Origin: a virus
Length of the DNA stretch: 64,000 nt
Strand: one strand, 5' to 3'
Virus record (IMG/VR): IMGVR_UViG_3300028844_004984
This document shows positions 45,328 through 61,182 of the stretch, piece by piece (position 1 is the stretch's first letter; each line of letters opens with the position of its first letter). Under the pieces are notes generated by a model. It saw only the letters and a list, made by a program, of their open reading frames with translations. It made no database searches and was not told the origin of the DNA. Made by a program: the position numbers and the translations under genes.

Positions 45328-46115
45328 TCGCAGAAATAGGTTGGAATCATTGTGGTGATATGGAACTCGCCAAAGAAATGATTCTTGCAGCAAAAGAAAG
45401 TGGAGCAACTTACGCAAAGTTCCAAAGTTGGTCAGTTAGTAGACTCAAGCCGGGTGCTTGGGATGAAGATGGTCGTAGAGAGATTTACGAAAAAGCAGAA
45501 CTTACGAAAGAGCGGCATATTGAATTAATCAATTATTGCGATGAGGTAGGTATCAAATTCATGTCAAGTGTATTCAGTATCAAAGATGCTGAACTTCTTG
45601 TTGAGTTGGGCGTTGAGGACGTGAAGATTCCAAGCTTTGAATCTCGCAACCACAAATTAATTAGGTATTGTGATGATAATTTCAAAAGAGTGTTCATGTC
45701 AACAGGCACATCTACCTTTGATGAGATTAAAGATAGTGTAAAAAATATTTGGAATTCTGAGTTTTATTTATTACATTGTGTATCAACATACCCGTGTAAT
45801 CCATCTATGGCAAATCTTCCTAGAATGAAATTGTTAAGTGAGTTGGGATTCCCTATTGGATACTCAGACCATATTCAAGGAGTTGAATCTGCTAAAGTAG
45901 CTATTGGGTGGGGTGCATCTGTAATTGAAAAGCACTTTACAATAAATAACGAACTGCCGGGTCGTGATAATAAGTTTGCAGTATTACCTCACCAAATGAA
46001 GGACCTAACTGAATACATAGAAATGATTGAGGAGATGATGGATTCACATGGTAGTGATTACCAACAATCCGAAACAGATTCACGAAATAATTACACTGGT
46101 AGGTTCGATGGATAA
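45315..46115 (+). CDS. neuB: Nonulosonic acid (N-acetylneuraminate-type) synthase, no SAF domain
   Basis: 'IAEIGWNHCGD', 'KFQ', 'KIPS', 'STG', 'LHCVSTYP', 'GYSDH', 'IEKHFT'. Confidence 0.92.
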   Translation: MVKVIAEIGWNHCGDMELAKEMILAAKESGATYAKFQSWSVSRLKPGAWDEDGRREIYEKAELTKERHIELINYCDEVGIKFMSSVFSIKDAELLVELGVEDVKIPSFESRNHKLIRYCDDNFKRVFMSTGTSTFDEIKDSVKNIWNSEFYLLHCVSTYPCNPSMANLPRMKLLSELGFPIGYSDHIQGVESAKVAIGWGASVIEKHFTINNELPGRDNKFAVLPHQMKDLTEYIEMIEEMMDSHGSDYQQSETDSRNNYTGRFDG

Positions 46116-46749
46116 CGTGAGTGTAATCATACGAAATCACAATGAGGGTGAGTACATTGGATTCGCTATACAATCGGTGTTGGACTACATACCAAATGCT
46201 GAGATATTGGTGATTGATGACCACTCAACAGATGATTCGTTAGAAGTGGTTAGGTTGTTTAACAATCGTGGTGATATAAAGATAACTACGATTGATGGTT
46301 ACACTCCTGGAAAGGCAATCAATTTCGGAGTAGAGCTCGCCAAGCACAATACGATATTAGTACTATCAGCACATTCTCAGATTGTTAAGATGGATTTGGA
46401 TTATGTAACCACTCGGCTAAAAACACATTCAGCAGTATTTGGGAATCAAACTCCAATTTATAGAGGAAAGAAAATATCTAAAAGGTACATCTGGTCACAC
46501 TTTGTAGATAGAGAGGTAGCTGATATGCACTCTATGATTGAAGATAGGGCATTTTTACACAATGCGTTTTGCTTCTACAACAAATCAGATTTGGTAAATA
46601 CCCCATTCGATGAATCTCTTCCAGGGAAAGAAGATAGGTATTGGGCGATTGATATTTTAGAAAACGGTAAAACATATTTATATACACCAAGTATTGAAGT
46701 AAACCACTACTATACGGGCAACGGAGCTACTTGGAAAGGATTAGGATAA
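46108..46749 (+). CDS. Glycosyltransferase family 2
   Basis: 'VSVIIRNHNE', 'IDDHSTD', 'LSAH', 'FDE...EDRYW'. Confidence 0.88.
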   Translation: MDNVSVIIRNHNEGEYIGFAIQSVLDYIPNAEILVIDDHSTDDSLEVVRLFNNRGDIKITTIDGYTPGKAINFGVELAKHNTILVLSAHSQIVKMDLDYVTTRLKTHSAVFGNQTPIYRGKKISKRYIWSHFVDREVADMHSMIEDRAFLHNAFCFYNKSDLVNTPFDESLPGKEDRYWAIDILENGKTYLYTPSIEVNHYYTGNGATWKGLG

Positions 46750-47585
46750 TGAAGATATTAGTTACAGGAGGTGCTGGATTCGTAGGAACAAACCTCATTA
46801 AACGATTATTGGGTGAAGGGCATGATGTAGTTTCGATAGACAACTACTATACTGGTAAGATAGAAAACCATCAGAAAGGGTGTAAATATCTGAATCATGA
46901 CCTCAGAAACCTTACTGAATTTATGGATGTTGATGTTGTATTTCATCTCGCTGCGATTGCACGGATTCAACCTTCATTTAAATTACCAAAAGAATACTTT
47001 ACAACAAATGCAAATGCCACACTAAACTTAGTTGATTGGTGCGCTAAGAATAATGTTCCATTAATTTATGCAGGTTCATCATCAAAGCATAGTGGTAGAT
47101 TTAAAAACCCATACACATTTTCTAAAGATGTAGGTGAGGATATTATATCACTCTACCAAGAACACTATGGATTACAATCATCAATTACAAGGTTCTACAA
47201 TGTATATGGGCCACATCATTTGAAAGATGGTGGTTATTGTACTGTAATTGGAAAGTGGGAGAAGTGTATTGAAGAGGGTAGACCTCTTACAATCTATGGA
47301 GATGGTACAAAGCGAAGAGATTTTACTCACATTGATGATATTGTAGATGCTCTGGTTAAGATTATGGAACAATCAGCATATGGTTATGATTTTGAATTAG
47401 GTAAAGGTAAGAACTACTCTATCCAAGAAATTGCAGAAATGTTCAATTACAGTGATATCGTATATGAAGATAATAAACCAGGTGAGGCACAAATTACACT
47501 TTGTGAGGATACACTTGCCAATGAAATTTTGGGATGGACACCCACTAAAAAAATTGAAGATTATATAAAACGATTAAAGTTATGA
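46749..47585 (+). CDS. NAD-dependent nucleotide-sugar epimerase/dehydratase
   Basis: 'TGGAGFVG', 'HLAA', 'YTFSK', 'RFYNVYGP', 'GDGTKRRDFTHIDD'. Confidence 0.92.
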   Translation: MKILVTGGAGFVGTNLIKRLLGEGHDVVSIDNYYTGKIENHQKGCKYLNHDLRNLTEFMDVDVVFHLAAIARIQPSFKLPKEYFTTNANATLNLVDWCAKNNVPLIYAGSSSKHSGRFKNPYTFSKDVGEDIISLYQEHYGLQSSITRFYNVYGPHHLKDGGYCTVIGKWEKCIEEGRPLTIYGDGTKRRDFTHIDDIVDALVKIMEQSAYGYDFELGKGKNYSIQEIAEMFNYSDIVYEDNKPGEAQITLCEDTLANEILGWTPTKKIEDYIKRLKL

Positions 47586-48187
47586 AAACAACAAAAGAAA
47601 TACTTGATGGTATTCCCGATAAGTATGGTTCAGAAAAGAACACAACATCGTTAAAATGGAAAGAAGATGTTATAGAGTTCTTTAGGAATAAAGAACTGAT
47701 ATCGTGTCTTGAGTTGGGAACTTGGCATGGTAGAAGTACAAGAATTCTATCCGAGATATTTAAAGATGTGTGGACTGTTGAGCTTGTACAACACAGAGTT
47801 GATAATGCACGAGAGTTTTGCAAGGATAAATCTAACATCACATTTGTATGTGGAAACGCATACTTAGATAAAACCTACAGAAGATTTCCACAACACTTTG
47901 ATGTTGTTGTTATAGACTGCGACCACACCCACAGTTCGGTTATAAAGGATATTGAAAGGGGGTTATCTTATGCACGACCTGGTAGTATTCAGTATTTTGT
48001 ATTTGATGATTATGGGCATTCAGAATTGGAAGGAGTTCACACCGGAATCAAACACTGTATAAAAAAGTATGGGTTACGGGTAGAAAATTACATAGGTCAT
48101 CCTGCGGGAACGACTATAAATCGTGGTAAGAAACCACCATTTACATTATTTGATTATGAAGGTTTAATTGTAAGTTCTGAAAAGTGA
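47582..48187 (+). CDS. Class I SAM-dependent methyltransferase
   Basis: 'LELGTWHGRST', 'IDCDH', 'FDDYG'. Confidence 0.85.
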   Translation: MKTTKEILDGIPDKYGSEKNTTSLKWKEDVIEFFRNKELISCLELGTWHGRSTRILSEIFKDVWTVELVQHRVDNAREFCKDKSNITFVCGNAYLDKTYRRFPQHFDVVVIDCDHTHSSVIKDIERGLSYARPGSIQYFVFDDYGHSELEGVHTGIKHCIKKYGLRVENYIGHPAGTTINRGKKPPFTLFDYEGLIVSSEK

Positions 48188-48945
48188 AGAAGAATATAAT
48201 ATTTATTCCAGCAATTGATGCTGGTAGGGGTAGACACCACGCATATAATTACAGTATCCAATCTTGGAAGAATTGGGCTAAGAAGCATGATGTGGAAGTT
48301 TTAGTTTGGGATACTCCATTGTACACTTGGGATGAGATGACTATTCCGTGGCAAAGGTATCATCTGTTTAAGATTTTAGACCATAATGAGATTGAGTTCG
48401 ACCAAGTCCTCATGGTGGATTCAGATACAATAGTCCACCCGGATACACCCAACTTTTTTGAAATGACCGAGCGGAAATACACAGGTGTTTTGGATTTGGG
48501 TTGTTGGGAATGGACAGGTCGCTCGCTACGACACTACAAAGATGTGTTTGATGGGTATAGGCTCGATAGAGGTATGTATTTCAATGGTGGGTTTCAGATT
48601 GTAAATGAATCACATCGTGAATTCTTCGATTTGGTTTTGGATTTCTACTCTAAGAATCAATCTACCTTAGTAGCCAAACAAAAAGCTGGGTTGGGAACAG
48701 ACCAGACTCCAATTAACTATCTAGCTCAGATGAATGGTATCGATTTAAAAATGTTACCATCAACATACAATCTACACCATATGGTCAGTAAGAATCTACT
48801 AAACTTTGGGCAGTCTTGGTGGGGGGATAGTATGGAGAATTTGTATGAGCAAGCTTGGGTGTACCACTTCAATGCTATACCTACCAATAAGCTAAATCGT
48901 AATTCAGAATATTTCCTAAAAAGAGCATACGAAGAACTATGGTAA
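48184..48945 (+). CDS. GT8-like (GT-A) glycosyltransferase
   Basis: 'MVDSDT', 'YFNGGF', 'DQT.INY', 'YHF'. Confidence 0.8.
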   Translation: MKKNIIFIPAIDAGRGRHHAYNYSIQSWKNWAKKHDVEVLVWDTPLYTWDEMTIPWQRYHLFKILDHNEIEFDQVLMVDSDTIVHPDTPNFFEMTERKYTGVLDLGCWEWTGRSLRHYKDVFDGYRLDRGMYFNGGFQIVNESHREFFDLVLDFYSKNQSTLVAKQKAGLGTDQTPINYLAQMNGIDLKMLPSTYNLHHMVSKNLLNFGQSWWGDSMENLYEQAWVYHFNAIPTNKLNRNSEYFLKRAYEELW

Positions 48946-49886
48946 GTATAGCATTCATATCAGAACTACCATTCGATGGTAGAGTTCCGAGAAATCACCC
49001 ACATATGAGAACAGAATTTGCTCAGATGTGTGCGTTGGGTGCGGACCACTACAACTATAAAAGTATATCAACTATCGAACGTAGTTATGACCATATAGTG
49101 TTGTTGATATCAAAAAGCGATGCTATCAGAGATTGGTTATACAACTCACCGAATTTGGTTACTGAACTGCGAGGTGTTGGTAGTAAGATTTGGTTTATGC
49201 AGGAAGCAACTGCACAGGTTTATCAACAATTTGAATTACATCATCAAATTAGACATTACAACCTACTTCAAGAAGTTGATGGTATCCTCACAGAGAATGT
49301 TACAGATTACAACTACTTTAGGGGGTTGGTTGGTGAAAGTAAGGAAATACATACAATACCAACCCTTATCATACCAGATGATTTTTTGAATCTAAGAAAT
49401 TCAAATCGTTTGGATAAATCAATGTTGGGTGGTAACTTTACAAAGTGGTATGCTGGGTTTGATTCATATTTGGTAGCTACAGAGTTTGATAACCATATAT
49501 CCATTCCTAAAATGAGAACGGTCGCAAACGAATCAAATCTGGTCGAAGTTCTACCACACGTTCAATTCAATGAGTGGATGAAAATTCTATCGGAATACAA
49601 ATATGCTGTACACCTTATGCCAAATGTAACGGCGGGTACATTCAATCTGAATTGTTCCTTTTTGGGCATACCGTGTATAGGATACGCACAATCAGATACA
49701 CAACGATTATGCCAACCCAAACTATCAGTTGAGAAGTATGATTTAGAATCAGCTAGAGGTTTGGCTAAGATGTTGAGAGATGATAAAGATTTTTACAATG
49801 AATGTTCTAAAGATGCTATAGAGAATCACGACAAATACTTTAGTGAGGTGGTATTCTTAGAACATATGAATTCAATTTTTAATTAA
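48939..49886 (+). CDS. GT-B-like glycosyltransferase
   Basis: 'AGTFNLNCSFLGIPCIG' GT-B C-terminal pattern; lies within the glycan island. Confidence 0.55.
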   Translation: MVSIAFISELPFDGRVPRNHPHMRTEFAQMCALGADHYNYKSISTIERSYDHIVLLISKSDAIRDWLYNSPNLVTELRGVGSKIWFMQEATAQVYQQFELHHQIRHYNLLQEVDGILTENVTDYNYFRGLVGESKEIHTIPTLIIPDDFLNLRNSNRLDKSMLGGNFTKWYAGFDSYLVATEFDNHISIPKMRTVANESNLVEVLPHVQFNEWMKILSEYKYAVHLMPNVTAGTFNLNCSFLGIPCIGYAQSDTQRLCQPKLSVEKYDLESARGLAKMLRDDKDFYNECSKDAIENHDKYFSEVVFLEHMNSIFN

Positions 49887-49895
49887 TACAAACAA

Positions 49896-50978
49896 ATGAA
49901 GTATTCTTCACAAGCGTTAACATATGATGATATTCAACTAATACCATCATTTTCAGAAATAAAATCAAGAAAGAACATCAAACTGAATACACTCCTAAGT
50001 AGGAGGTATGGTTTGTTGAATCCGATAGTTGCATCACCAATGGATACGGTGTGTGAGTACAATATGGCACTAAAGATGGCTCAGTTGGGTGGTGTTGGGT
50101 GTATTCACCGATTCATGTCCATAGTGGAACAATGTGATATAGTTAGTATGTTACACCAACGTATCAATGGTGAGCATGAATCACCAAACATTAATCAGCT
50201 GTGGGGTGTGATGTATGATGATTGGCACGCCGAACAACGTTCAGTTCCGATTATGGCAGCGATTGGTGTTCAGCAAGAGGATAGAGAGCGAGCTAAAAGT
50301 TTGGTTTATGCTGGAGCAAACGTTCTATTGATTGATGTAGCACACGGTGACCATCAAAATGTTATCGATATGGTAGAGTGGTGTAAGAGTAATCTTAATG
50401 AGAACGTCGATATCATCGCAGGGAACATAGCAACAGCGGAAGCAGCAGAGAGGTTAGAAGCAGCTGGTGCCGATGGGTTGAGAGTTGGTATCGGTGGTGG
50501 TTCGCTATGTACAACTAGAATCAAAACAGGATTCGGAGTACCAAATGTAACATCGATTCAAGAAGTTGATTTAGTAGCAACCACGCCAATTATGGCAGAT
50601 GGTGGAATCCGTACCAGTGGTGATATCTCAAAAGCACTTGCCATCGGAGCTGATAATGTGATGTTGGGTTCTCTTTTGGCTGGAACCGATGAATCGCCAG
50701 GAAAGATTTTGGAAACATCCAGAGGATTGTATAAGAGGTACAGAGGCTCTGCTTCGCTGGAAACGAAAACAACACATGGACAAGAAGCTAGAAACGTAGA
50801 GGGTGAATCTACTACAATTCCATATAAGGGCGGTGTTAGATTCATTATCAGCGGTTTGTTAGATGGTGTTAAATCAGCACTGAGTTATGCGGGAGCTAAC
50901 ACTTTGTTGGAGTATTCGCCGAAATATGTAGTAGTAACAAATAGTGGTATTAGAGAAGCTAAACCACACTTAATTTAA
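49896..50978 (+). CDS. IMP dehydrogenase / GMP reductase family (CBS-less)
   Basis: 'ASPMDTV', 'IDVAHG', '[11 protein letters not shown]', 'ADGGIR', 'YRGSAS', 'VEG'. Confidence 0.92.
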
Positions 50979-50986
50979 GGTAAGTT

Positions 50987-52198
50987 ATGTTGAGTAAGAA
51001 AGATATATCATTCATTCAACCAAGCAGAAACAATCTGAAGTATCTGAAATGGTCGTATGAATCAATTAGAAAGAATGGTGGAGATGAGCCAACCATTTGT
51101 GTAGCTGATGATTTCAGCAATGATGGAACTTGGGAGTGGTGTCAGGAGATGATGGAGAAGGACTCAAACTTCAAAGCAATCCGAAACGAAGGGCCTAAAC
51201 GATTAGGACATACAATCCTATATGATAGATTGATTAATGAGGTAGCAACTACACCCATCGTAGGAATTTATCATGCGGATATGTACCTTTGTCCTGGCGC
51301 ATTAGAATCTGTATTGGAACACATAACACCATTGAGTGTTGTTTCATTGACTCGTATTGAACCACCACTCCATCCCGATGGGCCTGAGAAGATTCTGATG
51401 GATTTTGGAATTGAGCCGGAGGAGTTTGTGGAGTTGGAAGAGGATTTACTACATCAGATTCCATCATTAAAGCAGGGTAGGACTACAGAGGGTATCTTTG
51501 CACCTTGGTTTTTGTTCAAAGAAGATTTTACATCAATTGGTGGGCACGACCCTCTATTCGCACCACAATCAAAAGAGGATACTGATATCTTCAATCGATT
51601 CCTTCTTAATGGATACAAACTAATTCAGACGTGGGATGGGTTTGTGTACCATATGACTTGTAGGGGGAGTAGATTCGCAGATGGTGCTAAAAGAAACCCA
51701 AATGGTGAAGTGTTTATGAAGAACAGAGAAACCAACGAATGGCTAACTCAGAACCAACGCTCTACTCGAAACTTTCTAAGAAAGTGGGGACATTATTGTA
51801 AGCACGATAGTTTAATGAAACCAATTGTACCACCTAAGTATGATGTACAATTCAGAATATTTAACGCTAATGAACGCTTGTTACAATTGTTAGAACCGTG
51901 GTGTGATAACATCTATGTAGATATAGAACAAAGTAAAATAGATGAGTATATTCAGAAAGAACAACCCGATACAGATTATGATTTAACTGAGAGAATCAAC
52001 AAAGATGGGATAGATTCTGATATAATTTTGAGGTTTGATGGAAGTAAATTTACACAAAATTCTTTTAATATCATACAACAGCTCTCTGCCATACTTGAGT
52101 CCAATAAAATTGAGGTTGGTGAGTTCGAATTAGATATATTGAACATACAGATAAACAAAGTAAAAACATATGAACATAAGCTAATTCGATTGGATTGA
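50987..52198 (+). CDS. Glycosyltransferase family 2
   Basis: 'DDFSNDGT', 'HADM', 'IGGHD..F....EDTD', 'VYH'. Confidence 0.85.
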   Translation: MLSKKDISFIQPSRNNLKYLKWSYESIRKNGGDEPTICVADDFSNDGTWEWCQEMMEKDSNFKAIRNEGPKRLGHTILYDRLINEVATTPIVGIYHADMYLCPGALESVLEHITPLSVVSLTRIEPPLHPDGPEKILMDFGIEPEEFVELEEDLLHQIPSLKQGRTTEGIFAPWFLFKEDFTSIGGHDPLFAPQSKEDTDIFNRFLLNGYKLIQTWDGFVYHMTCRGSRFADGAKRNPNGEVFMKNRETNEWLTQNQRSTRNFLRKWGHYCKHDSLMKPIVPPKYDVQFRIFNANERLLQLLEPWCDNIYVDIEQSKIDEYIQKEQPDTDYDLTERINKDGIDSDIILRFDGSKFTQNSFNIIQQLSAILESNKIEVGEFELDILNIQINKVKTYEHKLIRLD

Positions 52199-52767: not shown

Positions 52768-52959
52768 ATGTCAACAAAACTAAACAATAGTAAATCATTA
52801 CCAATCATTACCCGAAAGGTGGAGATTGAATTAGAAGAGTTGATAAAATCAATTGATGAGAAATGGTCCGACAAATACAAAAAATCTATAAATTGTAGTA
52901 ATCCAAAGGGATTCTCACAAAAAGCACATTGTGCTGGAAGGAAAAAGAAGGGGAAGTAA
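52768..52959 (+). CDS. Small basic protein with IDE| cleavage-like site and Cys/His motif
   Basis: 'SIDE|KWSDKYKKSINCSNPKGFSQKAHCAGRKK'. Preceded by TATTTATT. Confidence 0.6.
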   Translation: MSTKLNNSKSLPIITRKVEIELEELIKSIDEKWSDKYKKSINCSNPKGFSQKAHCAGRKKKGK

Positions 52960-52961
52960 TT

Positions 52962-53573
52962 ATGCGTTACACAAAAGAACAAATTGAAACAGTTGTTAAA
53001 TCCAAAGGTTACAAATGGTTCACATCAAATAACTACGATGTAAATATCGTTGGTGTTAGAAATGGTGATACAAATGGTGAAGTTACCAATAAGTTTGATG
53101 ACCACCTTACTATCTCATATAGAGATAATAATGGTAATTGGAACTTTCACTGCTTTGAAGCAACAACGGATCCCGGCTCGCACTGGACTGAAAAGCAACT
53201 ACTAAATGAAAATGGAGTAGCTATTCTAAAAGAAGGGCAATACAGAGGTTCACATAAGATTGGACTTCATCAGGGTAAGTACGAAGCACTCAGACAGAAG
53301 AAACCATTGAAAGTGTATCGTGATAAGAATATGGATGTATGCTATGATTTTATCGAAGAGAATGTACACGAAGGTATCTATGGTATCAATATTCACAGAG
53401 CAACGGCACGAAAGGGTGGTAAATCCGTTCAGGTTGATAAGTGGTCTGCTGGGTGTCAAGTGATTGCAGCGAATGATGATTTCAATTTATTTATGGATAT
53501 CTGTAGAAAGGCTAAGAATGTATGGGGCAACTCATTTACATATACACTAATTAACTCAGATGATATTTCGTAA
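52962..53573 (+). CDS. YkuD/L,D-transpeptidase-like peptidoglycan enzyme (candidate endolysin)
   Basis: 'GINIHRA...WSAGCQV' matches the H-x(14-17)-S-x-G-C pattern. Confidence 0.6.
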   Translation: MRYTKEQIETVVKSKGYKWFTSNNYDVNIVGVRNGDTNGEVTNKFDDHLTISYRDNNGNWNFHCFEATTDPGSHWTEKQLLNENGVAILKEGQYRGSHKIGLHQGKYEALRQKKPLKVYRDKNMDVCYDFIEENVHEGIYGINIHRATARKGGKSVQVDKWSAGCQVIAANDDFNLFMDICRKAKNVWGNSFTYTLINSDDIS

Positions 53574-53623
53574 ATCGTTCTATTTATATCTGAAAACGTA
53601 CATAACATAATTTTGGAAGTTCT

Positions 53624-56600
53624 ATGAAAAAATACATATTAGGTCTACTAATATCAATACCATATATTGTATTAGGTCAAAATTCGTGGGTAAATATTAC
53701 CCTGTTAACCGATAATTATCCAAGTGAAACGACTTGGAAAATAACACCTCCAGGTGGTTCGCCAATAATAGCAAGTAATGATACTAATATGATACCATTG
53801 ACTGTGTATCAACAGTATTTAGAAGTGGGTGGTGATATTGTTGTTGAGATTGAAGATTCCTTTGGGGATGGGTTAGATGCAACCGCATTTGGTGGCTCAA
53901 TAGGATATTTTCTTATTGAGAATTCATGCCAAGATACAATATTATTTGTAGAAGGTAACTTTGGTTCATTCTACACAGATACCTTAACTATCGCACCATG
54001 CGCACCACCAATTGGGGGATGTATAGACCCACTGGCAGTAAATTACGACCCAAACGCAACACTATCCGATAGCAGCTGTCTCTATGAAGTTGACTTCACA
54101 TTAAATATGAATTCGTATCCTGGCACTTTCACAACACCATATGTTGCTGGTACTTTTAATGGTTGGACTGACCAACACCCAATGACCGATGTGGATGGGG
54201 ATAATATATGGGAAGTAACAATCCCAATACCAAATGGACCACACCTTTGGAAATTTATGTTAGATAATTGGGTAGCTCAGGAATTACCCCCAAATGTACA
54301 AAATAACCCATTGGCGAGTTGTTTCGTATTAGACCAATTTGGATTTACAAACAGAGCGTTATTAGTTTTAGGGCCAACTACATTAGATGATTATTGTTGG
54401 GAAAGTTGCTACGATTGTGGTACTATTTTAGGATGTACCGACTCCACATCCAATGTATATAATCCGTGGGCTACAGATGATGATGGTTCTTGTGTATCAG
54501 CAGGTCCATCCGCTTGTGATACTGATGAGACATATATCCAAATAGTATTTACTCCCGATAACTACCCATCTGAGAGTGGGTATAAGGTGTATGATGACTT
54601 CGGATTATTGTTAGAATATCTGCCAGGTTCACTTAGTGGGTCAACTCCTGGCGTACCTATCACCGATTATGTGTGTGTTGATTCAAATGTATTGGTAGAC
54701 ATAGTTCTTGAAGATGTTTATGGAGATGGACTATGTGGTACTTGTTTTGGTGGTACGGTGAATGGTAATATTCAGGTGTTGGATTGTGATGGTAACGAAC
54801 TATACAACCTACAAGATACAATATTAGATGGTAACTTTGGATATCAGTTTACAACACCACAATTCAATACAGGTGATATTTGTTCAGGTGGTGGTACAAC
54901 CGATGTATATGGGTGTATGAATCCATTTTCTACAACATATGATTCTACTGCAACCGTTGATGATGGAAGTTGTGGCCCACTAAGAGTAGTAGGATGTACT
55001 GATACATCAGCATTTAACTATGACCCTAACGGAAATACAAGTGAGGTTATGACCGGAGACTACACCTTAGAAATCTTAGATGGTGCATCAAATGGTTGGG
55101 GTGGAACGTGGTTAGGAATTAAGCAAGGTGATTGGTTATCACCACAATATAAATTAGGACCAAACGATGGAAACTCATTAACTTTCAATGTTCCTCTGAA
55201 CATATATGAGCCAATCCAAATCTATTTGTTTACAACACCACAATCAGCAACCTCAATTGCACAGGTCGCTTACAACCTAACAGGACCTGAGGGTGATACA
55301 ATTTTAGATGTACCTTATTGGGGGGCACAATCATTACAATTCCCAATCGTTCAAACAACTACGACACAGCCAACTTTTGGTGATGTGTGTATTCCTACAA
55401 TTATTGGATGTACAGATACTAACTCTTTGAACTACGACCCACTCGCTAACACCGATGACGGTAATTGTGTTCAGATAGTGTATGGTTGTACAAACCCACT
55501 CGCATTTAACTATGATTCCAGCGCTAACACAGATGATGGTTCTTGCATCTCTGTAGTTGTTGGATGTATGGATTCTACGGCATACAATTTTGACCCGAAC
55601 GCAAACACACCGGGAGCGTGTATTCCAATTATCTACGGGTGTACAGACCCTAACTCATTCAACTACAACCCAAGCGCAAATACGGATGATAGCTCGTGTA
55701 TTCCAATTATCTACGGGTGTACAGATGTAACGTCGTTCAATTACGATTCAACGGCGAACACAGATGATGGTTCTTGTATCGCAAGAGTATATGGGTGTAC
55801 AGATACATCATCGTTTAACTACGACCCTCTTGCTAATACTGATAATGGTTCTTGTGTTGCCATTGTATTGGGATGTATGACACCAACATCAATCAACTAT
55901 GACCCACTTGCGAACGTAAACGATGGTTCTTGTATCCCAATCATATATGGTTGTACAGACTCGACTTCGTTCAACTATAACCCATTAGCTAATACGGATG
56001 ATAGCTCGTGTGTACCTATTGTGTTAGGGTGTACTACTCCGACCTCAATCAACTATGACCCACTCGCTAACACCGATGATGGTACTTGTATTCAACCAAT
56101 TTATGGATGTACGGACTCGACTTCGTTTAACTACAACCCATTGGCTAATACTGATAATGGCTCTTGTATACCCATCGTATTAGGGTGTACCACCCCAAGC
56201 TCCATTAATTACAATCCCTCAGCTAATACGGATGATGGGAGTTGTATTCCAATCATCTATGGGTGTACGGATTCGACCTCATTTAATTACAACCCATTGG
56301 CTAATACTGATAATGGTTCTTGTGTTGCCATTGTATTGGGATGTACAACACCTACTTCAATAAACTACAATCCGAATGCCAACACCGATGATGGTTCGTG
56401 TATTCCATTTATTTATGGATGTACTGATTCAACCTCATTTAATTACAATCCATTGGCTAATACGGATGATGGCAGTTGTGCTCCATTTATTTATGGATGT
56501 ACCGACCCCAATGCATTTAACTATGACCCTAATGCGAACACAAACCAAGTATCAGCAACTGATTTATCCAACCCATGCATTCCGATTGTATATGGTTGTA

Positions 56601-57136
56601 CCGATTCTACTGCTGTGAACTACGACCCTAATGCGAACGTAGATAATGGTAGTTGTATCGCTTCGGTGGTGGGTTGTACGGATGTAGCCGCTTGGAATTG
56701 GAATCCAGCAGCGAACGTATCTGATTCGACAGTGTGTTTATATGATGCAGGATGTATTGATGGGCCAGGAAATCCATATTGGTTGAATGACCCGTGCTAT
56801 GCGTGGGTAATTGATATAGATAACTATTGCTGTAATAACGAATGGGATAGTGATTGTCAAAATCTTTATGATTATTGTGAAAATGGATGGCCATTGGATG
56901 TTGATGAGCTTGCATTTAACAATATCATAATTTATCCAAACCCAACTAAAAACGTAGTTAACGTAAGAAGTAATTTGGATATCACATATAGTGTGTATGA
57001 TTTCTCAGGAAAATTATTGATTGAGAACTCCAAAGATGAGGTAATTGATATGAACCCATATCCAAGTGGTGTATATCTGATACAAATAAGTTTCAACAAC
57101 AAAATTTATCGAAGAAAAATTGTGAAGGAGAACTAA
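53624..57136 (+). CDS. Secreted repeat protein with T9SS type A sorting domain
   Basis: Signal peptide ending 'VLG|Q'; carbohydrate-binding-like 'VAGTFNGW..MTD.DGD.IW'; ~21 GCTD..NY...A..DDGSC repeats; C-terminal 'IYPNPT...YDFSGK...SGVYLIQI...KIVKE'. Confidence 0.9.
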   Translation: MKKYILGLLISIPYIVLGQNSWVNITLLTDNYPSETTWKITPPGGSPIIASNDTNMIPLTVYQQYLEVGGDIVVEIEDSFGDGLDATAFGGSIGYFLIENSCQDTILFVEGNFGSFYTDTLTIAPCAPPIGGCIDPLAVNYDPNATLSDSSCLYEVDFTLNMNSYPGTFTTPYVAGTFNGWTDQHPMTDVDGDNIWEVTIPIPNGPHLWKFMLDNWVAQELPPNVQNNPLASCFVLDQFGFTNRALLVLGPTTLDDYCWESCYDCGTILGCTDSTSNVYNPWATDDDGSCVSAGPSACDTDETYIQIVFTPDNYPSESGYKVYDDFGLLLEYLPGSLSGSTPGVPITDYVCVDSNVLVDIVLEDVYGDGLCGTCFGGTVNGNIQVLDCDGNELYNLQDTILDGNFGYQFTTPQFNTGDICSGGGTTDVYGCMNPFSTTYDSTATVDDGSCGPLRVVGCTDTSAFNYDPNGNTSEVMTGDYTLEILDGASNGWGGTWLGIKQGDWLSPQYKLGPNDGNSLTFNVPLNIYEPIQIYLFTTPQSATSIAQVAYNLTGPEGDTILDVPYWGAQSLQFPIVQTTTTQPTFGDVCIPTIIGCTDTNSLNYDPLANTDDGNCVQIVYGCTNPLAFNYDSSANTDDGSCISVVVGCMDSTAYNFDPNANTPGACIPIIYGCTDPNSFNYNPSANTDDSSCIPIIYGCTDVTSFNYDSTANTDDGSCIARVYGCTDTSSFNYDPLANTDNGSCVAIVLGCMTPTSINYDPLANVNDGSCIPIIYGCTDSTSFNYNPLANTDDSSCVPIVLGCTTPTSINYDPLANTDDGTCIQPIYGCTDSTSFNYNPLANTDNGSCIPIVLGCTTPSSINYNPSANTDDGSCIPIIYGCTDSTSFNYNPLANTDNGSCVAIVLGCTTPTSINYNPNANTDDGSCIPFIYGCTDSTSFNYNPLANTDDGSCAPFIYGCTDPNAFNYDPNANTNQVSATDLSNPCIPIVYGCTDSTAVNYDPNANVDNGSCIASVVGCTDVAAWNWNPAANVSDSTVCLYDAGCIDGPGNPYWLNDPCYAWVIDIDNYCCNNEWDSDCQNLYDYCENGWPLDVDELAFNNIIIYPNPTKNVVNVRSNLDITYSVYDFSGKLLIENSKDEVIDMNPYPSGVYLIQISFNNKIYRRKIVKEN
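55406..56749 (+). repeat. Coding tandem repeat: 17 x ~78 bp (26 aa) GCTDxxxxNYxPxANTDDGSCxxxxx
   Basis: Visible in both protein and DNA. The central units alternate GCTDSTSFNY / GCTTPTSINY. Confidence 0.95.
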
Positions 57137-57137
57137 G

Positions 57138-58247
57138 ATGAGAAGTGTATTACTTTTATTGTGTGTACTACCTTTGATGGTACATGCCCAGCAACCTAAG
57201 TTTGGTGAAGAACCATCAAAAAGGTGGACAGAAAGTGAGTTCTCAAAAAAGTTCAAAAGAGAATTTAAGTTTTCAACATTTTACCTTGCGTATAATGGTA
57301 ACAACTCGGTTTCTGACGTAACAACATATTCAGTAACCAATGGGTTAACCACAACAACCTCATCTACACCATATGATTATTCAGGTGTATTTGGTATCAG
57401 AAAAATTCAACGATTCGGATACGAACCAAACATTCAGAACCGATTCAAAAATGGTACTGAGAACTCATTCTCTGATGCTGCGACAATTGGTAGTAAATCG
57501 AGAGGATTTGAATATCTTTTTGAGTTTGATTATAGAAGGCAGCAGGGTAGAGAGTTTTTGAGTCAAGACCACTTCCTTAGATACATTGCTGATAGATATG
57601 TTTTGAAGGTAGAGTATCTTGAGGACGGAATCGCAGATATTGGTTACTTCGAAGCATCACAAAGATTTAGACATAAGTTCAACAGAAAGTTTTCAATAAA
57701 CGCTGGAGCGGTTCAGAGAATCTCAGAACCATATGGATACGACCCACTGGATGAGTGGTTATTGGCTAATGGTAATATTCACTTTACCAATCTTGCTATC
57801 AATGAAATGGGTTATAGTATTGATTTCTCAGATGGATTAGATGGTATTCAATACATAGACCCCAACGGAGTAGTAGTTGCTACCAATAGAGAGGTTTGGG
57901 AAGCAGTTACAATCCCAAAAGTACTATCAGATTATGTTGATTTAAAAAGAAGTGAGCTACCAGATAAGTGGGAATACTCTTTAGTTATTGGTTTCGATTA
58001 CTACCACTACTCAAAAGATTTTTGGTTACATTCTTGGGCTAATGTACTACCATATCATGTAGATATAGATAATGAGTATAGCTATCATACATTCAATAAC
58101 GGACAGTGGATTGATTATTCGGGTGGATTAATATTCGGATACAGATTCACAAAATCACTTGGGGTATTTACTGAAGGGAGATATCACAAGTACTGGAATC
58201 GCAGTTGGTACGAATTTTCAACTGGAATTAACTTCATAATATTATAA
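57138..58247 (+). CDS. Putative outer-membrane beta-barrel protein
   Basis: Signal peptide 'VHA|QQ', alternating aromatic beta-strands, C-terminal 'YEFSTGINFIIL'. Confidence 0.65.
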   Translation: MRSVLLLLCVLPLMVHAQQPKFGEEPSKRWTESEFSKKFKREFKFSTFYLAYNGNNSVSDVTTYSVTNGLTTTTSSTPYDYSGVFGIRKIQRFGYEPNIQNRFKNGTENSFSDAATIGSKSRGFEYLFEFDYRRQQGREFLSQDHFLRYIADRYVLKVEYLEDGIADIGYFEASQRFRHKFNRKFSINAGAVQRISEPYGYDPLDEWLLANGNIHFTNLAINEMGYSIDFSDGLDGIQYIDPNGVVVATNREVWEAVTIPKVLSDYVDLKRSELPDKWEYSLVIGFDYYHYSKDFWLHSWANVLPYHVDIDNEYSYHTFNNGQWIDYSGGLIFGYRFTKSLGVFTEGRYHKYWNRSWYEFSTGINFIIL

Positions 58248-58256
58248 GGATACGAA

Positions 58257-58541
58257 ATGGCAAAGCAGTTAAGCGAAGAAACTAAAATCACATTAGACTT
58301 AAAAACTATTGGCTTAATTTTAGTAGGAGTAGCAACAGTTGTGGGAATGTGGTTCGCACTTCAAGCGGATATAGAAGAAGCAAAGGAATTACCAGTACCA
58401 CCTGAGCCGGATGTTACACGAATGGAATACGATATGAAAGACCAACTGATTAGGCAAACAATTATGACTACTCAAGAGGATGTGGGTGAGCTGAAAGAAG
58501 ATATAAAGCGTATTGAAGAAAAAATAGATAGATTAAAGTAA
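58257..58541 (+). CDS. Single-TM coiled-coil protein
   Basis: TM segment 'IGLILVGVATVVGMWF' followed by a heptad coil. Confidence 0.65.
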   Translation: MAKQLSEETKITLDLKTIGLILVGVATVVGMWFALQADIEEAKELPVPPEPDVTRMEYDMKDQLIRQTIMTTQEDVGELKEDIKRIEEKIDRLK

Positions 58542-58550
58542 GGAGAACCC

Positions 58551-58877
58551 ATGAAAAAGTTTTTACTGATTCCGTTCCTACTTTTGAGTAATCTCGCCGG
58601 AGCTCAGATTGTAGTAATGCATTTCAACGCTGGTTGGAACGAACCAAACGATGTTGAGTGGGTAAGTGATTTAGAAGATTGTGAAATCGACTTCATTGAT
58701 ATCGCCAAAAAACCCAAACTACAACAAAAATGGAATGTGGTGGTTGTACCAACAGTCATACTCATTCAGTACGATGAAGAAAAGAAGAGATATCAAGCGG
58801 ATTTGAGTTTCAAATTATCCGCTACAAAAGAAGAAATTCAAGATAAAATAGATGAGCTAATATTAGATGGATTCTAA
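58551..58877 (+). CDS. Exported thioredoxin-fold protein lacking CxxC
   Basis: Signal peptide; 'HFNAGWN' in place of FxAxWCxxC; 'VVPTVIL' cis-Pro loop. Confidence 0.65.
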   Translation: MKKFLLIPFLLLSNLAGAQIVVMHFNAGWNEPNDVEWVSDLEDCEIDFIDIAKKPKLQQKWNVVVVPTVILIQYDEEKKRYQADLSFKLSATKEEIQDKIDELILDGF

Positions 58878-58926
58878 TATCTCAAGATACTTATAGAAGT
58901 ATAAACAAACAAAAATAGTTGCGGTT

Positions 58927-59172
58927 ATGAAAAAAATTTGGAGTAGAATTATGGCATTTAAAGATATTTTCAAAGATGAAAATGATATGAATGAGAAAAA
59001 TGTAATTGGTTTCATATCATTCACAGTAATGGTATTATTTGCTGCAGCAGATTTGGTAACTGGCTACGTTGGAAAGGACTTGGTTGTTCAGGAGTTTATT
59101 TATAACTCATTTGTTATCGTAACACTTGGTTGTTTTGGAATCGCAGGAATTGAAAAGTTCGCGAAGAAGTGA
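58927..59172 (+). CDS. Two-TM membrane protein (holin-like)
   Basis: Two hydrophobic segments and a basic C-terminus 'EKFAKK'. Confidence 0.55.
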   Translation: MKKIWSRIMAFKDIFKDENDMNEKNVIGFISFTVMVLFAAADLVTGYVGKDLVVQEFIYNSFVIVTLGCFGIAGIEKFAKK

Positions 59173-59603
59173 TGTTCACTTTTAAAAATACATATATGGC
59201 AATAGTACTTGGCATAGGTTCATCCATGGGGTTTTTATGTACATATCTAATGGATGTGGCTATGGGGAATGCTGAACAATATTTAGCCGTAGTTTCAGTT
59301 CTATTATTGGATGGGTTCTTTGGTATTATCGCTGGTGCTAGGCGTGAGGGGTTCAAAACATACAAAGCACTTAGAGTGTTGAAAAACATATTTGCGTGGG
59401 AATTAATACTCACAGCAATCCTATCAATCGAATTGGGATTCAAAGGAACTTCTTGGTTATCCGAAACAATATTAGCACCATTTATGGTATTCCAGATGAT
59501 ATCAGCGTTAAAGAACGCATCAATGGCGGGATTCATTAAGAATGAACTTCTAAACGAAATCTTAGATAGAATCGACTCTCACAAAGGAAATCGCCAAAAA
59601 TAA
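59172..59603 (+). CDS. Phage holin family protein
   Basis: 'LLDGFFGIIAG.R.EGF.T.K', 'SALKNA...G' holin pattern with 3-4 TMs. Confidence 0.65.
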   Translation: MFTFKNTYMAIVLGIGSSMGFLCTYLMDVAMGNAEQYLAVVSVLLLDGFFGIIAGARREGFKTYKALRVLKNIFAWELILTAILSIELGFKGTSWLSETILAPFMVFQMISALKNASMAGFIKNELLNEILDRIDSHKGNRQK

Positions 59604-60165: not shown

Positions 60166-61182
60166 ATGCCAAATTACAATAGAAAAGATATGCCACAAAT
60201 TAAAACCCAAAATTTGGCTAAAGCATTGGATGCTGTGGCTGATAGGGTCAGGGTATCTAAAGAGATGGTTTCCACATCTAAACTGAAGAGTTCTCAAAAA
60301 GAACTTTACAACGATAAGGTAAAGGCTATTGCTGATAAGCTAACTTCACCTAAAAAAATGAAACCGATAATTATATCTAAAGATAATTACATTGTCGATG
60401 GCCATCATAGATGGGCAGCCGCAGCCTATAAATTTGGTGATGGGGTTAAAATACCAGCCCACAAAATTCACTTAAATGTAAATTCATCTATAAAGTTGTA
60501 TAAGATGGTAGCTCAATCTATCGGAGAGATGGTTAGTGAACTAAAGGAAGCTATCAACATTCCGATTGAGATTGGTGATACTGTTTTGGGTGGTAAGTTC
60601 AAAAACAAAAGAATTGTTGTTAAATCAATCAGTAAAAATGAAAAGGGTGATATTACAATCAATGGTAGACCTCTTCTAAAGTATAGATTGTTAGATGAGT
60701 CCACCGCACCAAATCATAATGGTAAATCAGCACCATATGGTAGTGGGTACGATGAACTCAAAGAAGCTTGCTGGAAGGGCTATAAACAAGTTGGTGGTAA
60801 GATGAAAAATGGTAAGATGGTGCCAAATTGTGTACCAATCAACGAAATCCCAATGCCAGACTTGAAAAAGATTGATACATTTGCTGATAAGAAACTTAAT
60901 CCAGTTGATGTAGTAATCACAGATAAACACTTCTTTGATAGGTTAAACGACCCTAGAAATGGGAAAGAGATTACATCAGCAGAGTTAATTGGATTCTTCA
61001 AACGATTATCCAAACACAAAAAAACGTTCGTTAATTTTCTCGATAAATACAAATCAGTAGTTGCCGTAGATGATAGAACTGATATTAACATTCCGTTTAT
61101 GAAGCGCGCGAATAAAGCAATCGCTAAAACGGTAATGCGTAAAAAAGATTTTAAAACACCCGACAAAAAGTTGGATATTTGA
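60166..61182 (+). CDS. Modular protein: ParB/Srx-like domain plus small modules separated by LxE sites
   Basis: 'PIIISKDNYIVDGHHRWAA' ParB motif; LKE|, LDE|, LKE| and INE| junctions. Confidence 0.75.
   Translation: MPNYNRKDMPQIKTQNLAKALDAVADRVRVSKEMVSTSKLKSSQKELYNDKVKAIADKLTSPKKMKPIIISKDNYIVDGHHRWAAAAYKFGDGVKIPAHKIHLNVNSSIKLYKMVAQSIGEMVSELKEAINIPIEIGDTVLGGKFKNKRIVVKSISKNEKGDITINGRPLLKYRLLDESTAPNHNGKSAPYGSGYDELKEACWKGYKQVGGKMKNGKMVPNCVPINEIPMPDLKKIDTFADKKLNPVDVVITDKHFFDRLNDPRNGKEITSAELIGFFKRLSKHKKTFVNFLDKYKSVVAVDDRTDINIPFMKRANKAIAKTVMRKKDFKTPDKKLDI

What the first reader, a model, noticed from the sequence alone, without database searches (positions are those of the whole stretch)
53581..58877. 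Phage-encoded T9SS cargo cassette: repeat adhesin, beta-barrel, TM coiled-coil and redox-dead exported thioredoxin
Seen: four tightly spaced envelope-targeted genes follow a TATTTATA motif, between a peptidoglycan enzyme and holins. The first has a signal peptide and an intact type A T9SS C-terminal domain. Established: T9SS is Bacteroidota-specific and exports surface proteins. Inference: the phage uses the host T9SS to remodel the infected cell surface (superinfection exclusion, aggregation, grazer avoidance), or this is an unconventional outer-membrane lysis module, since no spanin is evident.
Basis: partly seen in the sequence, partly recalled or inferred. Interest (0 to 1): 0.8.

Follow-up and report, generated by a model that had tools for sequence, protein, structure and literature searches.

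The report
Phage envelope trio plus T9SS cargo
An uncultured marine phage of flavobacteria-like hosts carries, inside its lysis genes, a secretion-tagged surface protein plus a conserved set of outer-membrane barrel, inner-membrane helix protein and inactive periplasmic thioredoxin. This set recurs in thousands of ocean phage sequences and may be an undescribed way of breaking the host's outer membrane, but its function is untested.

Summary
Four tightly spaced exported-protein genes (53624-58877) lie between a putative wall hydrolase and two holin-like genes, and a late-type promoter motif heads them. Gene 1 is a 1170-aa acidic, Cys-rich repeat protein with an intact T9SS type A sorting domain (TIGR04183, 48.5 bits against a cut-off of 23). 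Gene 2 folds as an outer-membrane beta-barrel. Gene 3 is an N-in single-TM protein with two short periplasmic helices. Gene 4 is a signal-peptide thioredoxin fold in which the CxxC segment is deleted.

The cassette is neither a degenerating capture nor a chimera. The barrel, TM protein and thioredoxin-like gene are linked in about 95% of 63 dereplicated viral loci, down to 25-35% barrel identity. The cargo is a variable neighbour (26 of 33 well-flanked loci). Three unrelated holin families and four wall-hydrolase types take turns as neighbours (22 of 33 within 1 kb). The barrel is not a PorP/PorV-type T9SS barrel, and no lipoprotein spanin is present in the record.

My best reading (about 0.45) is that the trio is an envelope-spanning module acting on the outer membrane at lysis, with a co-expressed T9SS surface protein. 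Function is untested. Phage T9SS cargo is already published. This scan has found the same trio before on at least 13 other genomes, with the same reading.

The parts
52929..53573 (+). Putative cell-wall hydrolase (endolysin-like). The likely true start is the ATG at 52962.
   Evidence: phrog_3000 E 1.3e-33 and phrog_33083 'endolysin' E 1.2e-14. No Pfam or PDB sequence match. An H...SAGC motif is visible by eye.
53581..53588 (+). TATTTATA late-type promoter motif, 43 nt before the cargo ATG
   Evidence: 19 copies on the + strand against 3 on the - strand in the record; 13 of 19 are intergenic although 96.3% of the record is coding; it precedes tail sheath, tube, hub and fibre genes. CTATTTATA plus a similar leader is conserved in L002, L009, L016, L018, L028 and L065.
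53624..57136 (+). T9SS type A cargo, 1170 aa: signal peptide, two 'TDNYPSE' domains, a CBM48-like module, about 20 Cys-bounded repeats, a Cys-rich knot and the CTD
   Evidence: 60 Cys; D+N+T 29%; K+R 1.6%. The family has at least 1979 clusters, nearly all retaining PF18962.
54140..54274 (+). CBM48 / AMPK-beta glycogen-binding-like module (aa 173-217), borderline
   Evidence: PF16561 26.3 bits against a cut-off of 26.8; PDB 4y0g E 0.007. Many relatives carry PF16561 in precomputed hits.
55409..56737 (+). Array of 26-aa repeats, C.D....NY.P.AN.DDGSC (aa 596-1038)
   Evidence: TRF finds periods of 78 and 156 nt at 55619-56506; the repeats are listed; phrog_2192 E 2e-11.
56930..57130 (+). T9SS type A C-terminal sorting domain (aa 1103-1169)
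   Evidence: TIGR04183 48.5 bits (cut-off 23), full length 1-72/72; PF18962 39.3 bits.
57138..58247 (+). Outer-membrane beta-barrel, 369 aa. It has a signal peptide, about 14 strands, a conserved non-strand segment (aa 90-122), an 80-aa insert (aa 197-276) and a hydrophobic C-terminal beta-signal.
   Evidence: AF2 models. Foldseek: NanC E 3e-7. VIA: Tsx Z 16.3, KdgM 15.3, NanC 14.4. More than 3500 clusters with no Pfam domain. Conservation by region.
58257..58541 (+). Bitopic inner-membrane protein, 94 aa: a 16-aa cytoplasmic tail, a TM segment (aa 17-35), a Pro-rich linker and two periplasmic helices
   Evidence: It is the most conserved gene of the set (59-95% identity; mean column identity 77%). 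More than 8000 clusters, nearly all exactly 94 aa. It has no Cys.
58551..58877 (+). Exported thioredoxin-fold protein, 108 aa, lacking CxxC
   Evidence: Profile against PDB thioredoxins E 3.8e-6, with the CGPC segment in a gap; cis-Pro VVVPT and one Cys are invariant.
58927..59172 (+). Small 2-TM holin-like protein (hol1)
   Evidence: TM segments at aa 26-44 and 57-75. It stays next to the trio in many relatives. No family hit.
59169..59603 (+). Holin-like membrane protein (hol2)
   Evidence: PF05105 Phage_holin_4_1 E 7e-4, 20.1 bits (cut-off 22.2); phrog_199 holin E 0.009; TIGR01593 E 0.017.

Best explanation
This is a late-transcribed envelope operon set inside the lysis region of an uncultured marine myovirus of about 176 kb, whose host is a Flavobacteriia-type bacterium. 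It has two parts.

(1) A variable, very acidic, Cys-rich repeat protein carries a Sec signal and an intact type A sorting domain. It would be exported through the host's type IX secretion system to the cell surface or the medium.

(2) An invariant trio follows: an outer-membrane beta-barrel, an N-in/C-out inner-membrane protein with two short periplasmic helices, and a periplasmic thioredoxin fold that cannot do redox chemistry.

I propose that the three trio proteins assemble into a complex linking inner membrane, periplasm and outer membrane, and that it acts after the holin and the wall hydrolase to breach or loosen the outer membrane. That would make it a functional stand-in for a spanin. 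The barrel's conserved non-strand segment (aa 90-122) is a candidate periplasmic docking site.

Shown here: the gene content, folds and topology predictions, conserved linkage, lysis-gene neighbourhood, late-type promoter motif, and non-membership of the T9SS barrel families. Inferred: that a complex forms, where each protein is located, and the lysis role.
For: Linkage: the TM protein lies next to the barrel in 59 of 62 dereplicated loci and the thioredoxin-like gene in 57 of 60, down to 25-35% barrel identity.

Lysis context: among 33 loci with at least 1.5 kb of flank on both sides, a recognised lysis gene lies within 100 nt in 19 and within 1 kb in 22. The partners change: hol1/hol2, the phrog_3427 holin, the phrog_3000 enzyme, M15, a PG_binding_1 endolysin, SLT and DUF5675. 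Lineages with the trio but no cargo have a holin directly adjacent (L074, L078, L080).

No rival spanin: the 113-kb record has no lipobox gene, and six consecutive genes hold nearly all of the phage's exported or membrane proteins.

Timing: the cassette is headed by the same motif as the tail sheath, tube and hub genes.

Architecture: the three proteins cover the OM (barrel fold), the IM and the periplasm.

The barrel is not PorP/SprF or PorV: hhalign probability is 21% or less, against 97.9% for the control.

The thioredoxin-like gene keeps all its motifs in lineages without the cargo.
Against: There is no experiment, and no cultured phage carries the trio.

The TM protein's periplasmic part (about 59 aa, two helices of 15 and 19 aa) is too short to span a periplasm by itself. 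It has no Cys, whereas about 96% of two-component spanins do. It is far more conserved than spanins usually are.

No mechanism is known by which a barrel would disrupt or fuse membranes.

My co-fold attempt gave no confident contacts: pLDDT stayed below 50 for the TM protein and the thioredoxin-like part.

In 11 of 33 well-flanked loci I detected no lysis gene within 1 kb, including a portal/tail-fibre context (L068, L073, L076). The cargo gene abuts the trio more often (26 of 33) than a lysis gene does.

Lysis regions are known hot-spots for unrelated accessory genes (my own knowledge: lambda bor and lom).

The record is only about 59% complete, so a spanin could lie in the missing part.
Confidence: 0.45

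Rival explanations
1. The trio is a helper system for the T9SS cargo. The dead thioredoxin would act as a PDI-b'-like holdase for a protein with about 30 disulfides. The barrel would be a dedicated outer-membrane anchor or exit partner, and the TM protein would link both to the inner membrane. The product would be a phage-directed surface coat.
For: The cargo gene abuts the trio in 26 of 33 well-flanked loci, always contiguous (gaps of 1-110 nt), and in this window the set appears to form one transcription unit (tight spacing behind a single promoter motif). The cargo has 60 Cys. In flavobacteria, type B cargo genes are often paired with PorP/SprF-like barrels (my own knowledge).
Against: The trio persists with no CTD gene in the L068-L080 clade and in L099, L101 and L103, and the thioredoxin-like gene keeps all its conserved motifs there. 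The barrel shows no relation to PorP/SprF or PorV. The CTD here is type A, which is not known to need a private barrel. The cargo varies widely (691-1229 aa, 4-14 repeats) while the trio is strongly conserved.
Confidence: 0.2
2. The cassette remodels the envelope to block other phages or to protect progeny, through superinfection exclusion or receptor masking. The barrel and cargo would occupy or cover surface receptors, and the periplasmic proteins would block incoming DNA or lysozyme, as T4 Imm/Sp or T5 Llp do.
For: All four proteins are envelope-targeted. The cargo is the most variable gene, as expected in an arms race. Bellas et al. 2020 proposed a similar role for phage T9SS cargo. Flavobacterial phages often use T9SS-dependent surface proteins as receptors (my own knowledge).
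Against: A late-type promoter shared with tail genes is poor timing for exclusion. The trio's very high conservation and its steady link to holins and endolysins of changing families are not expected for an exclusion gene.
Confidence: 0.12
3. The trio is a lysis-timing device, in the manner of an antiholin or lysis inhibition. It would sense a periplasmic or outer-membrane signal and pass it to the holin through the TM protein, as T4 RI/RIII do with holin T.
For: The trio is directly adjacent to holins of three families. The TM protein is small, strongly conserved and sits in the inner membrane, as holins do. Some divergent versions gain a cytoplasmic N-terminal domain (L101, L103).
Against: If the TM protein bound holins it should co-vary with them, yet it is nearly constant while the holin family changes. 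No known antiholin system needs an outer-membrane barrel.
Confidence: 0.1
4. The genes are unrelated accessory genes that collect beside the lysis genes, and the barrel is a captured host porin-like protein with a role outside lysis.
For: A lone barrel relative sits among housekeeping genes in a Cryomorphaceae MAG. Lysis regions attract accessory genes (my own knowledge).
Against: Fixed three-gene linkage and order hold across very divergent phage backbones. Only 2 of 301 sampled Flavobacteriales genomes carry the barrel, and one of those two places is a phage contig.
Confidence: 0.08

Closest known systems
Two-component spanins (lambda Rz/Rz1 type; Kongari et al. 2018, PMC6139136)
   Same: Located in or beside the holin/endolysin genes. 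One partner is an N-in/C-out inner-membrane protein with two periplasmic helices joined by a linker. The other partner is in the outer membrane. Together they could bridge the envelope. The record has no other spanin candidate.
   Different: The outer-membrane partner is a barrel of about 14 strands, not a lipoprotein. A third partner, a periplasmic thioredoxin fold, is always present. The TM protein is short, has no Cys and is highly conserved. There is no sequence homology to any spanin family. Function is untested.
Phage-encoded T9SS type A cargo ('Cryophage', Bellas et al. 2020, PMC7468147)
   Same: A phage gene with a Sec signal and a type A sorting domain; a variable gene; the presumed use of the host's T9SS.
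   Different: Here the cargo is a Cys-rich repeat protein with a CBM48-like module rather than a glycoside hydrolase or PA14 protein. It sits in a lysis-region operon with the conserved trio.
T9SS outer-membrane barrels PorP/SprF (PF11751) and PorV (PF19572)
   Same: Outer-membrane barrels of Bacteroidota, and PorP/SprF genes often lie next to cargo genes.
   Different: No detectable homology (hhalign probability 3-21% against 97.9% for the control). The structural match to PorV is only Z 8.2-8.3, below Tsx, KdgM and NanC.
Small 12-14-stranded outer-membrane barrels (Tsx, KdgM/NanC, OmpG, autotransporter beta-domains)
   Same: These are the best structural matches (Z 14-16, rmsd about 3-4 A over 160-200 residues).
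   Different: Sequence identity is 5-11%, with no profile match. The phage barrel has an 80-residue insert and a conserved 33-residue non-strand segment that these lack. A shared fold does not indicate a shared function.
Redox-inactive thioredoxin folds (PDI b/b' domains, ERp29-type; from my own knowledge)
   Same: A thioredoxin fold that retains the cis-Pro loop but lacks CxxC, consistent with a binding or scaffold role.
   Different: The comparison rests on recall only. The sequence matches here are to classical thioredoxins, not to PDI b' domains.

Membership tests
T9SS type A cargo | C-terminal sorting domain matching TIGR04183 / PF18962 above the curated cut-off | tested here: met
   48.5 bits (cut-off 23), model positions 1-72/72; 39.3 bits (cut-off 27).
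T9SS type A cargo | N-terminal Sec signal peptide | tested here: met
   MKKYILGLLISIPYIVLGQ, read from the translation. No dedicated signal-peptide predictor was available.
T9SS type A cargo | The host has a T9SS and the protein is secreted through it | not testable with these tools
   The host is unknown. A relative's contig is binned in a Flavobacteriales MAG, and 5 of 5 sampled Flavobacteriales genomes carry PorP and PorV.
Two-component spanin | i-spanin: N-in/C-out single TMD with a helical, coiled-coil periplasmic domain | tested here: met
   TM at aa 17-35, then two helices separated by a short linker. The periplasmic part is only about 59 aa.
Two-component spanin | o-spanin: an outer-membrane lipoprotein with a lipobox | tested here: not met
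   There is no credible lipobox ORF in the cassette or in the 113-kb record. The OM partner would be a barrel.
Two-component spanin | Periplasmic cysteines for intermolecular disulfides (about 96% of pairs) | tested here: not met
   The TM protein has no Cys and the mature barrel has none. The frequency comes from PMC6139136.
Two-component spanin | Encoded with the holin and endolysin genes | tested here: met
   True in the window, and within 1 kb in 22 of 33 well-flanked relatives.
Two-component spanin | Required for outer-membrane disruption (complements Rz/Rz1) | not testable with these tools
   This needs an experiment.
PorP/SprF or PorV (T9SS barrels) | Profile similarity to PF11751 / PF19572 | tested here: not met
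   No hmmscan hit at E <= 0.1. hhalign probability 13-21% (PorP) and 3-4% (PorV), against 97.9% for the PorP-PorV control.
Thioredoxin (oxidoreductase) | Thioredoxin fold with the cis-Pro loop | tested here: met
   Profile against PDB thioredoxins E 3.8e-6; VVVPT is invariant. A single sequence falls below the Pfam cut-off (16.7 bits against 23.5).
Thioredoxin (oxidoreductase) | CxxC active site | tested here: not met
   The CGPC segment aligns to a gap. The family has FNASFN there, and only one Cys elsewhere.
Outer-membrane beta-barrel protein | Signal peptide, closed antiparallel barrel, hydrophobic or aromatic C-terminal residue | tested here: met
   AF2 pLDDT 85-96 for the barrel body. All top structural hits are OM barrels. 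The C-terminus is ..NY(V/I)I(L/F). This is a prediction only.
Holin (genes 58927-59603) | Match to a curated holin family above its cut-off | tested here: inconclusive
   hol2: PF05105 20.1 bits against 22.2, phrog_199 E 0.009. hol1: no hit, 2 TM segments.

The most novel reading that the evidence does not exclude
The barrel, TM-helix protein and dead-thioredoxin trio is a new, non-spanin class of outer-membrane-breaching machinery used by a large share of marine Bacteroidota phages. Its outer-membrane partner is a beta-barrel, assembled by the host's BAM machinery, rather than a lipoprotein. It may work together with a T9SS-delivered surface protein.
Probability: 0.35. Interest if true: 0.85.

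Novelty: new variant of a known kind. Interest (0 to 1): 0.62.

Why it matters
How phages of Bacteroidota get through the outer membrane at lysis is poorly understood. Canonical two-component spanins are rarely found in these phages, and a 2025 survey detected only unimolecular spanins in Bacteroidetes phages (PMC12596118). In Kongari et al. 2018, 91 of 677 phages of Gram-negative hosts had no identifiable spanin.

This trio is very abundant in ocean metagenomes: more than 3500 barrel clusters and more than 8000 TM-protein clusters at 90% identity. It has no annotated relative, and it sits where a spanin would. It is therefore a concrete, testable candidate for the missing step in a group of phages that turn over a large part of marine particle-degrading bacteria.

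If it instead serves the T9SS cargo, it would be the first phage-encoded accessory machinery for type IX secretion. Either result would give names to thousands of 'hypothetical' genes.

Tried and rejected
1. **T9SS barrel idea.** No Pfam hit, and hhalign against PorP/SprF and PorV alignments built from 5 Flavobacteriales genomes was negative, with a positive control. Rejected.

2. **Outer-membrane enzyme idea (OMPLA, LpxR, PagL type).** These appear among the fold matches. However, the His/Ser candidates (H298, H307, S315) do not have the H-x-S spacing and are not invariant once divergent members are added. Dropped.

3. **Co-folding the trio.** I used the window's own stop-read-through translation (TAA read as Gly), because the three genes share a reading frame. 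Only 3 loci have all three genes in frame, so just one paired full-trio row (L044) could be added, plus 13 paired TM-protein/thioredoxin rows; the barrel rows were unpaired. The barrel model improved, but the other two parts stayed below pLDDT 50, so there is no contact information.

4. **First alignment for that job.** It misplaced the thioredoxin-like rows onto the barrel region and was rebuilt.

5. **Cultured phages.** tblastn of the barrel and the TM protein against 50,697 deposited phage genomes found nothing. DNA search found only trivial hits.

6. **Raw count of TATTTATA in the window.** Not above chance. The signal lies in strand bias, intergenic position and conservation.

7. **Wall hydrolase.** No PDB or Pfam match, so its enzyme class stays open.

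8. **N-terminal domain of the long TM-protein variants (L101, L103).** It looks like a GspE-N/MshEN motif by eye, but hmmscan gave nothing.

9. **The search for related loci with the broad barrel alignment.** It failed for lack of conserved stretches.

10. **Chimeric contig.** Rejected. The same upstream glycosyltransferase and small genes and the same downstream genes flank the cassette in several independent contigs, including 172-178 kb ones. The exact cargo protein lies on a 175,965-bp contig.

11. **Protein atlas.** Only viral unnamed clusters and generic barrels.

Full report
**What the window is.** The window is bases 27152-91151 of a 113,339-bp IMG/VR virus record that CheckV puts at about 59% complete. 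All genes run on the + strand. It encodes a DnaB-like helicase, a family B DNA polymerase, ribonucleotide reductase and glycosyltransferases. The left part of the record encodes tail sheath, tail tube, baseplate hub and tail fibre proteins, so this is a large myovirus. The exact cargo protein of the finding also lies on a 175,965-bp contig, and close relatives come from contigs of 172-178 kb.

Four ORFs lie at 53624-57136, 57138-58247, 58257-58541 and 58551-58877, separated by 1, 9 and 9 nt.
- Gene 1 (1170 aa) begins with a signal-type sequence and ends in a complete T9SS type A sorting domain: TIGR04183 48.5 bits against a cut-off of 23, and PF18962 39.3 bits against 27.
- Between those ends, gene 1 has a borderline CBM48/AMPK-beta-like module (26.3 bits against 26.8; PDB 4y0g E 0.007) and about 20 copies of a 26-residue Cys-bounded repeat. 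It has 60 Cys and is very acidic.
- Gene 2 (369 aa) matches no family in Pfam, NCBIfam or PHROGs. AlphaFold2 folds it as a beta-barrel. With a deeper alignment the barrel body reaches pLDDT 85-96.
- Only outer-membrane barrels match the gene 2 model: Foldseek NanC E 3e-7; VIA-align Tsx Z 16.3 (rmsd 2.9, 184 aligned), KdgM 15.3 and NanC 14.4.
- Gene 3 (94 aa) has one TM segment at aa 17-35, followed by a Pro-rich linker and two helices.
- Gene 4 (108 aa) has a signal peptide. Its family profile hits solved thioredoxins at E 3.8e-6. The CGPC active-site segment aligns to a gap, while the cis-Pro motif VVVPT is invariant. 'Redox-dead exported thioredoxin' is therefore correct.

**The flanks.** The upstream gene matches phrog_3000 (E 1e-33) and an endolysin-annotated PHROG (E 1e-14), but nothing in Pfam or the PDB. 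I call it a putative wall hydrolase. The two downstream genes are a 2-TM 81-aa protein and a 144-aa membrane protein with sub-threshold holin matches.

**The promoter motif.**
- Across the record it occurs 19 times on the + strand and 3 times on the - strand.
- Thirteen of the 19 lie in the 3.7% of the record that is non-coding, usually 28-60 nt before a start codon.
- The genes it precedes include the tail sheath, tail tube, baseplate hub, tail fibre and a head-tail adaptor-like gene.
- CTATTTATA, followed by a similar leader, is conserved upstream of the cargo gene in several relatives.
- I therefore read it as the phage's late-type promoter. The four genes (tight spacing, one motif) are probably one late transcription unit; this last step is inference.

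**Conservation and linkage.** A viral-contig scan with the barrel returned 79 loci at 34-80% identity. The thioredoxin-like gene lies at a fixed offset in them.
- After dereplication to 63 loci, the TM protein lies next to the barrel in 59 of 62 loci with enough sequence, and the thioredoxin-like gene in 57 of 60.
- The pairing survives in members with only 25-31% barrel identity. In those members the TM protein has a longer coiled coil or an added cytoplasmic domain (L099, L101, L103).
- The families are very large: more than 3500 barrel clusters, more than 8000 TM-protein clusters (nearly all exactly 94 aa) and at least 1979 cargo clusters at 90% identity. Almost all come from marine metagenomes, and none has an informative name.
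- The same flanking genes recur in independent assemblies.

**What is core and what varies.** The trio is the constant unit.
- The cargo gene abuts it in 26 of 33 loci that have at least 1.5 kb on both sides. It is usually just upstream and sometimes downstream (L044, L046).
- The cargo varies from 691 to 1229 aa, with 4-14 repeats.
- The cargo is absent from a divergent clade (L068-L080) and from L099, L101 and L103.
- Lysis genes lie within 100 nt of the trio in 19 of the 33 loci and within 1 kb in 22.
- The lysis partners change between lineages. The holin-type partners are hol1, hol2 and a phrog_3427 holin (E 6e-22). The wall hydrolases are the phrog_3000 enzyme, an M15 peptidase, a PG_binding_1 endolysin, an SLT transglycosylase and DUF5675.
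- In the lineages without cargo, a holin is directly adjacent to the trio (L074, L078, L080).
- These counts have two limits. The lysis figure is a lower bound, because I searched only the lysis families I had recognised. The sample is biased towards relatives of this window.
- Eleven of the 33 loci showed no lysis gene within 1 kb. Three of those sit in a portal/tail-fibre context (L068, L073, L076).

**Is the barrel a T9SS part?** Because it so often follows a cargo gene, I tested this directly. PorP/SprF and PorV sequences taken from five Flavobacteriales genomes were aligned and compared with the barrel profiles by hhalign.
- Barrel against PorP/SprF: probability 13-21% over about 20 columns, which are the signal peptide.
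- Barrel against PorV: probability 3-4%.
- PorP against PorV (control): probability 97.9% over 196 columns.
- PorV is also only a middling structural match (Z 8.2-8.3).
- The barrel is therefore not a detectable member of that clan.

**Where else the barrel occurs.**
- The family is essentially viral. Only 2 of 301 sampled Flavobacteriales genomes have a strong match.
- One of those two places is a phage-type contig reading cargo, barrel, TM protein, thioredoxin-like gene, PG_binding_1 endolysin.
- The other is a lone barrel among housekeeping genes in a Cryomorphaceae MAG.
- The protein atlas and the viral structure library gave only unnamed viral relatives and generic barrels.

**Spanins.**
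- A scan of every possible start in the 113-kb record found no credible lipobox protein.
- Apart from a tape-measure-like protein and a few small ORFs, all predicted exported or membrane proteins of the record lie in the six consecutive genes 53624-59603.
- Kongari et al. 2018 define the i-spanin as an N-in/C-out protein with two periplasmic helices and a linker, and the o-spanin as an outer-membrane lipoprotein.
- They found no spanin in 91 of 677 phages, and about 96% of spanin pairs have periplasmic Cys.
- Gene 3 fits the i-spanin outline. However, it is short, has no Cys and is unusually conserved, and no lipoprotein partner exists here.
- The trio therefore cannot be filed as a spanin. 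At most it would work like one.

**Barrel topology (inference).** The strand map shows 14 strands. If the C-terminus is periplasmic, as in other outer-membrane proteins, then the 80-residue insert (aa 197-276) faces outwards and the 33-residue non-strand segment (aa 90-122) faces the periplasm. The insert is the least conserved part. The segment is as conserved as the strands, with 7 invariant residues. That segment would be a natural docking site for the periplasmic partners.

I tried to test contacts by co-folding the window's own read-through translation of the three in-frame genes. The TM protein and thioredoxin-like parts stayed below pLDDT 50, so nothing can be said about contacts.

**Best reading and rivals.**
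- Best reading (about 0.45): the trio is an envelope-spanning module that acts on the outer membrane at lysis. The cargo would be a co-expressed, fast-evolving surface protein exported by the host's T9SS.
- Main rival (about 0.2): the trio serves the cargo. The dead thioredoxin as a holdase for a protein with about 30 disulfides is an attractive idea. It is weakened by the lineages without cargo, which keep every conserved motif of the thioredoxin-like protein, and by the negative PorP/PorV test.
- Superinfection exclusion (about 0.12) fits poorly with a late promoter.
- A lysis-timing role (about 0.1) fits poorly with a nearly constant TM protein beside changing holins.
- Unrelated accessory genes (about 0.08) fit poorly with the fixed linkage.

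**Novelty.**
- Phage-encoded T9SS type A cargo has been published ('Cryophage', Bellas et al. 2020, PMC7468147), so that part is a new member of a known kind.
- I found nothing in the searchable literature on a barrel-based lysis module in Bacteroidota phages.
- This scan has met the same trio on at least 13 other genomes, and earlier follow-ups reached the same reading.
- My tests agree with those follow-ups. I add the late-promoter evidence, the explicit PorP/PorV exclusion, the cellular Cryomorphaceae relative and the region-wise conservation of the barrel.
- That agreement is not independent proof, because no one has tested function.

Noticed in passing
window 54001-58000: GC skew falls to 0.03-0.08 and AT skew to about 0.01, against about 0.2 and 0.1 elsewhere, and GC rises to 0.38-0.41 over the cargo and barrel genes. 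This may reflect the N/T/D/G-rich repeat protein or a different origin.
   Followed up: no
G000:C1 whole record (e.g. genome 4510, 7701, 13660, 19149, 22061, 24535, 25144; window 13066, 53581, 62568): (A)TATTTATA is a strongly strand-biased, intergenic promoter-type motif (19 on + against 3 on -). It precedes the tail sheath, tube, hub and fibre genes, and also the phage bS21 and PhoH genes.
   Followed up: partly
L103:1442-2059 and L101:11271-11648: Divergent versions of the TM protein carry an extra cytoplasmic N-terminal domain of about 100 aa. Its LGE(L/I)L...G motif resembles GspE-N/MshEN domains by eye, but hmmscan against Pfam found nothing.
   Followed up: partly
L104:7959-9173 (Cryomorphaceae MAG CAZEWZ010000035) and L100:8001-9203: A lone cellular relative of the phage barrel (about 30% identity) sits among housekeeping genes without the other two trio genes. 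It could be the ancestral host gene or a domesticated phage gene.
   Followed up: partly
L062:9265-9564; L101:10640-11251: Some lineages insert an extra exported protein inside the module: a DUF2279/VanZ-like protein between the TM protein and the thioredoxin-like gene (L062), or a 204-aa lipoprotein with an LLFAFSC lipobox (L101).
   Followed up: partly
L070:2255-2464 and L076:2239-2448: A 69-aa Cys-rich lipoprotein (LLASC lipobox) lies about 5.5 kb upstream of the trio in the portal-context lineage that lacks an adjacent holin. It could be an o-spanin-like protein.
   Followed up: no
window 49896-50978: A 360-aa ORF looks like an IMP dehydrogenase / GMP reductase-type TIM-barrel enzyme by eye. 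It follows a long run of glycosyltransferase-like genes (33488-52198).
   Followed up: no
window 60166-61182: A protein with a ParB-like nuclease N-terminal part (phrog_2859 E 1.5e-22; ParBc_2 weak) and a C-terminal part that matches several unnamed PHROGs lies just after the lysis region.
   Followed up: no
window 52929-53573: The wall-hydrolase candidate has no Pfam or PDB relative but carries an H...SAGC motif reminiscent of YkuD-type L,D-transpeptidase folds. A crAss-like phage (cr8_1) has a DNA-level match to it.
   Followed up: partly
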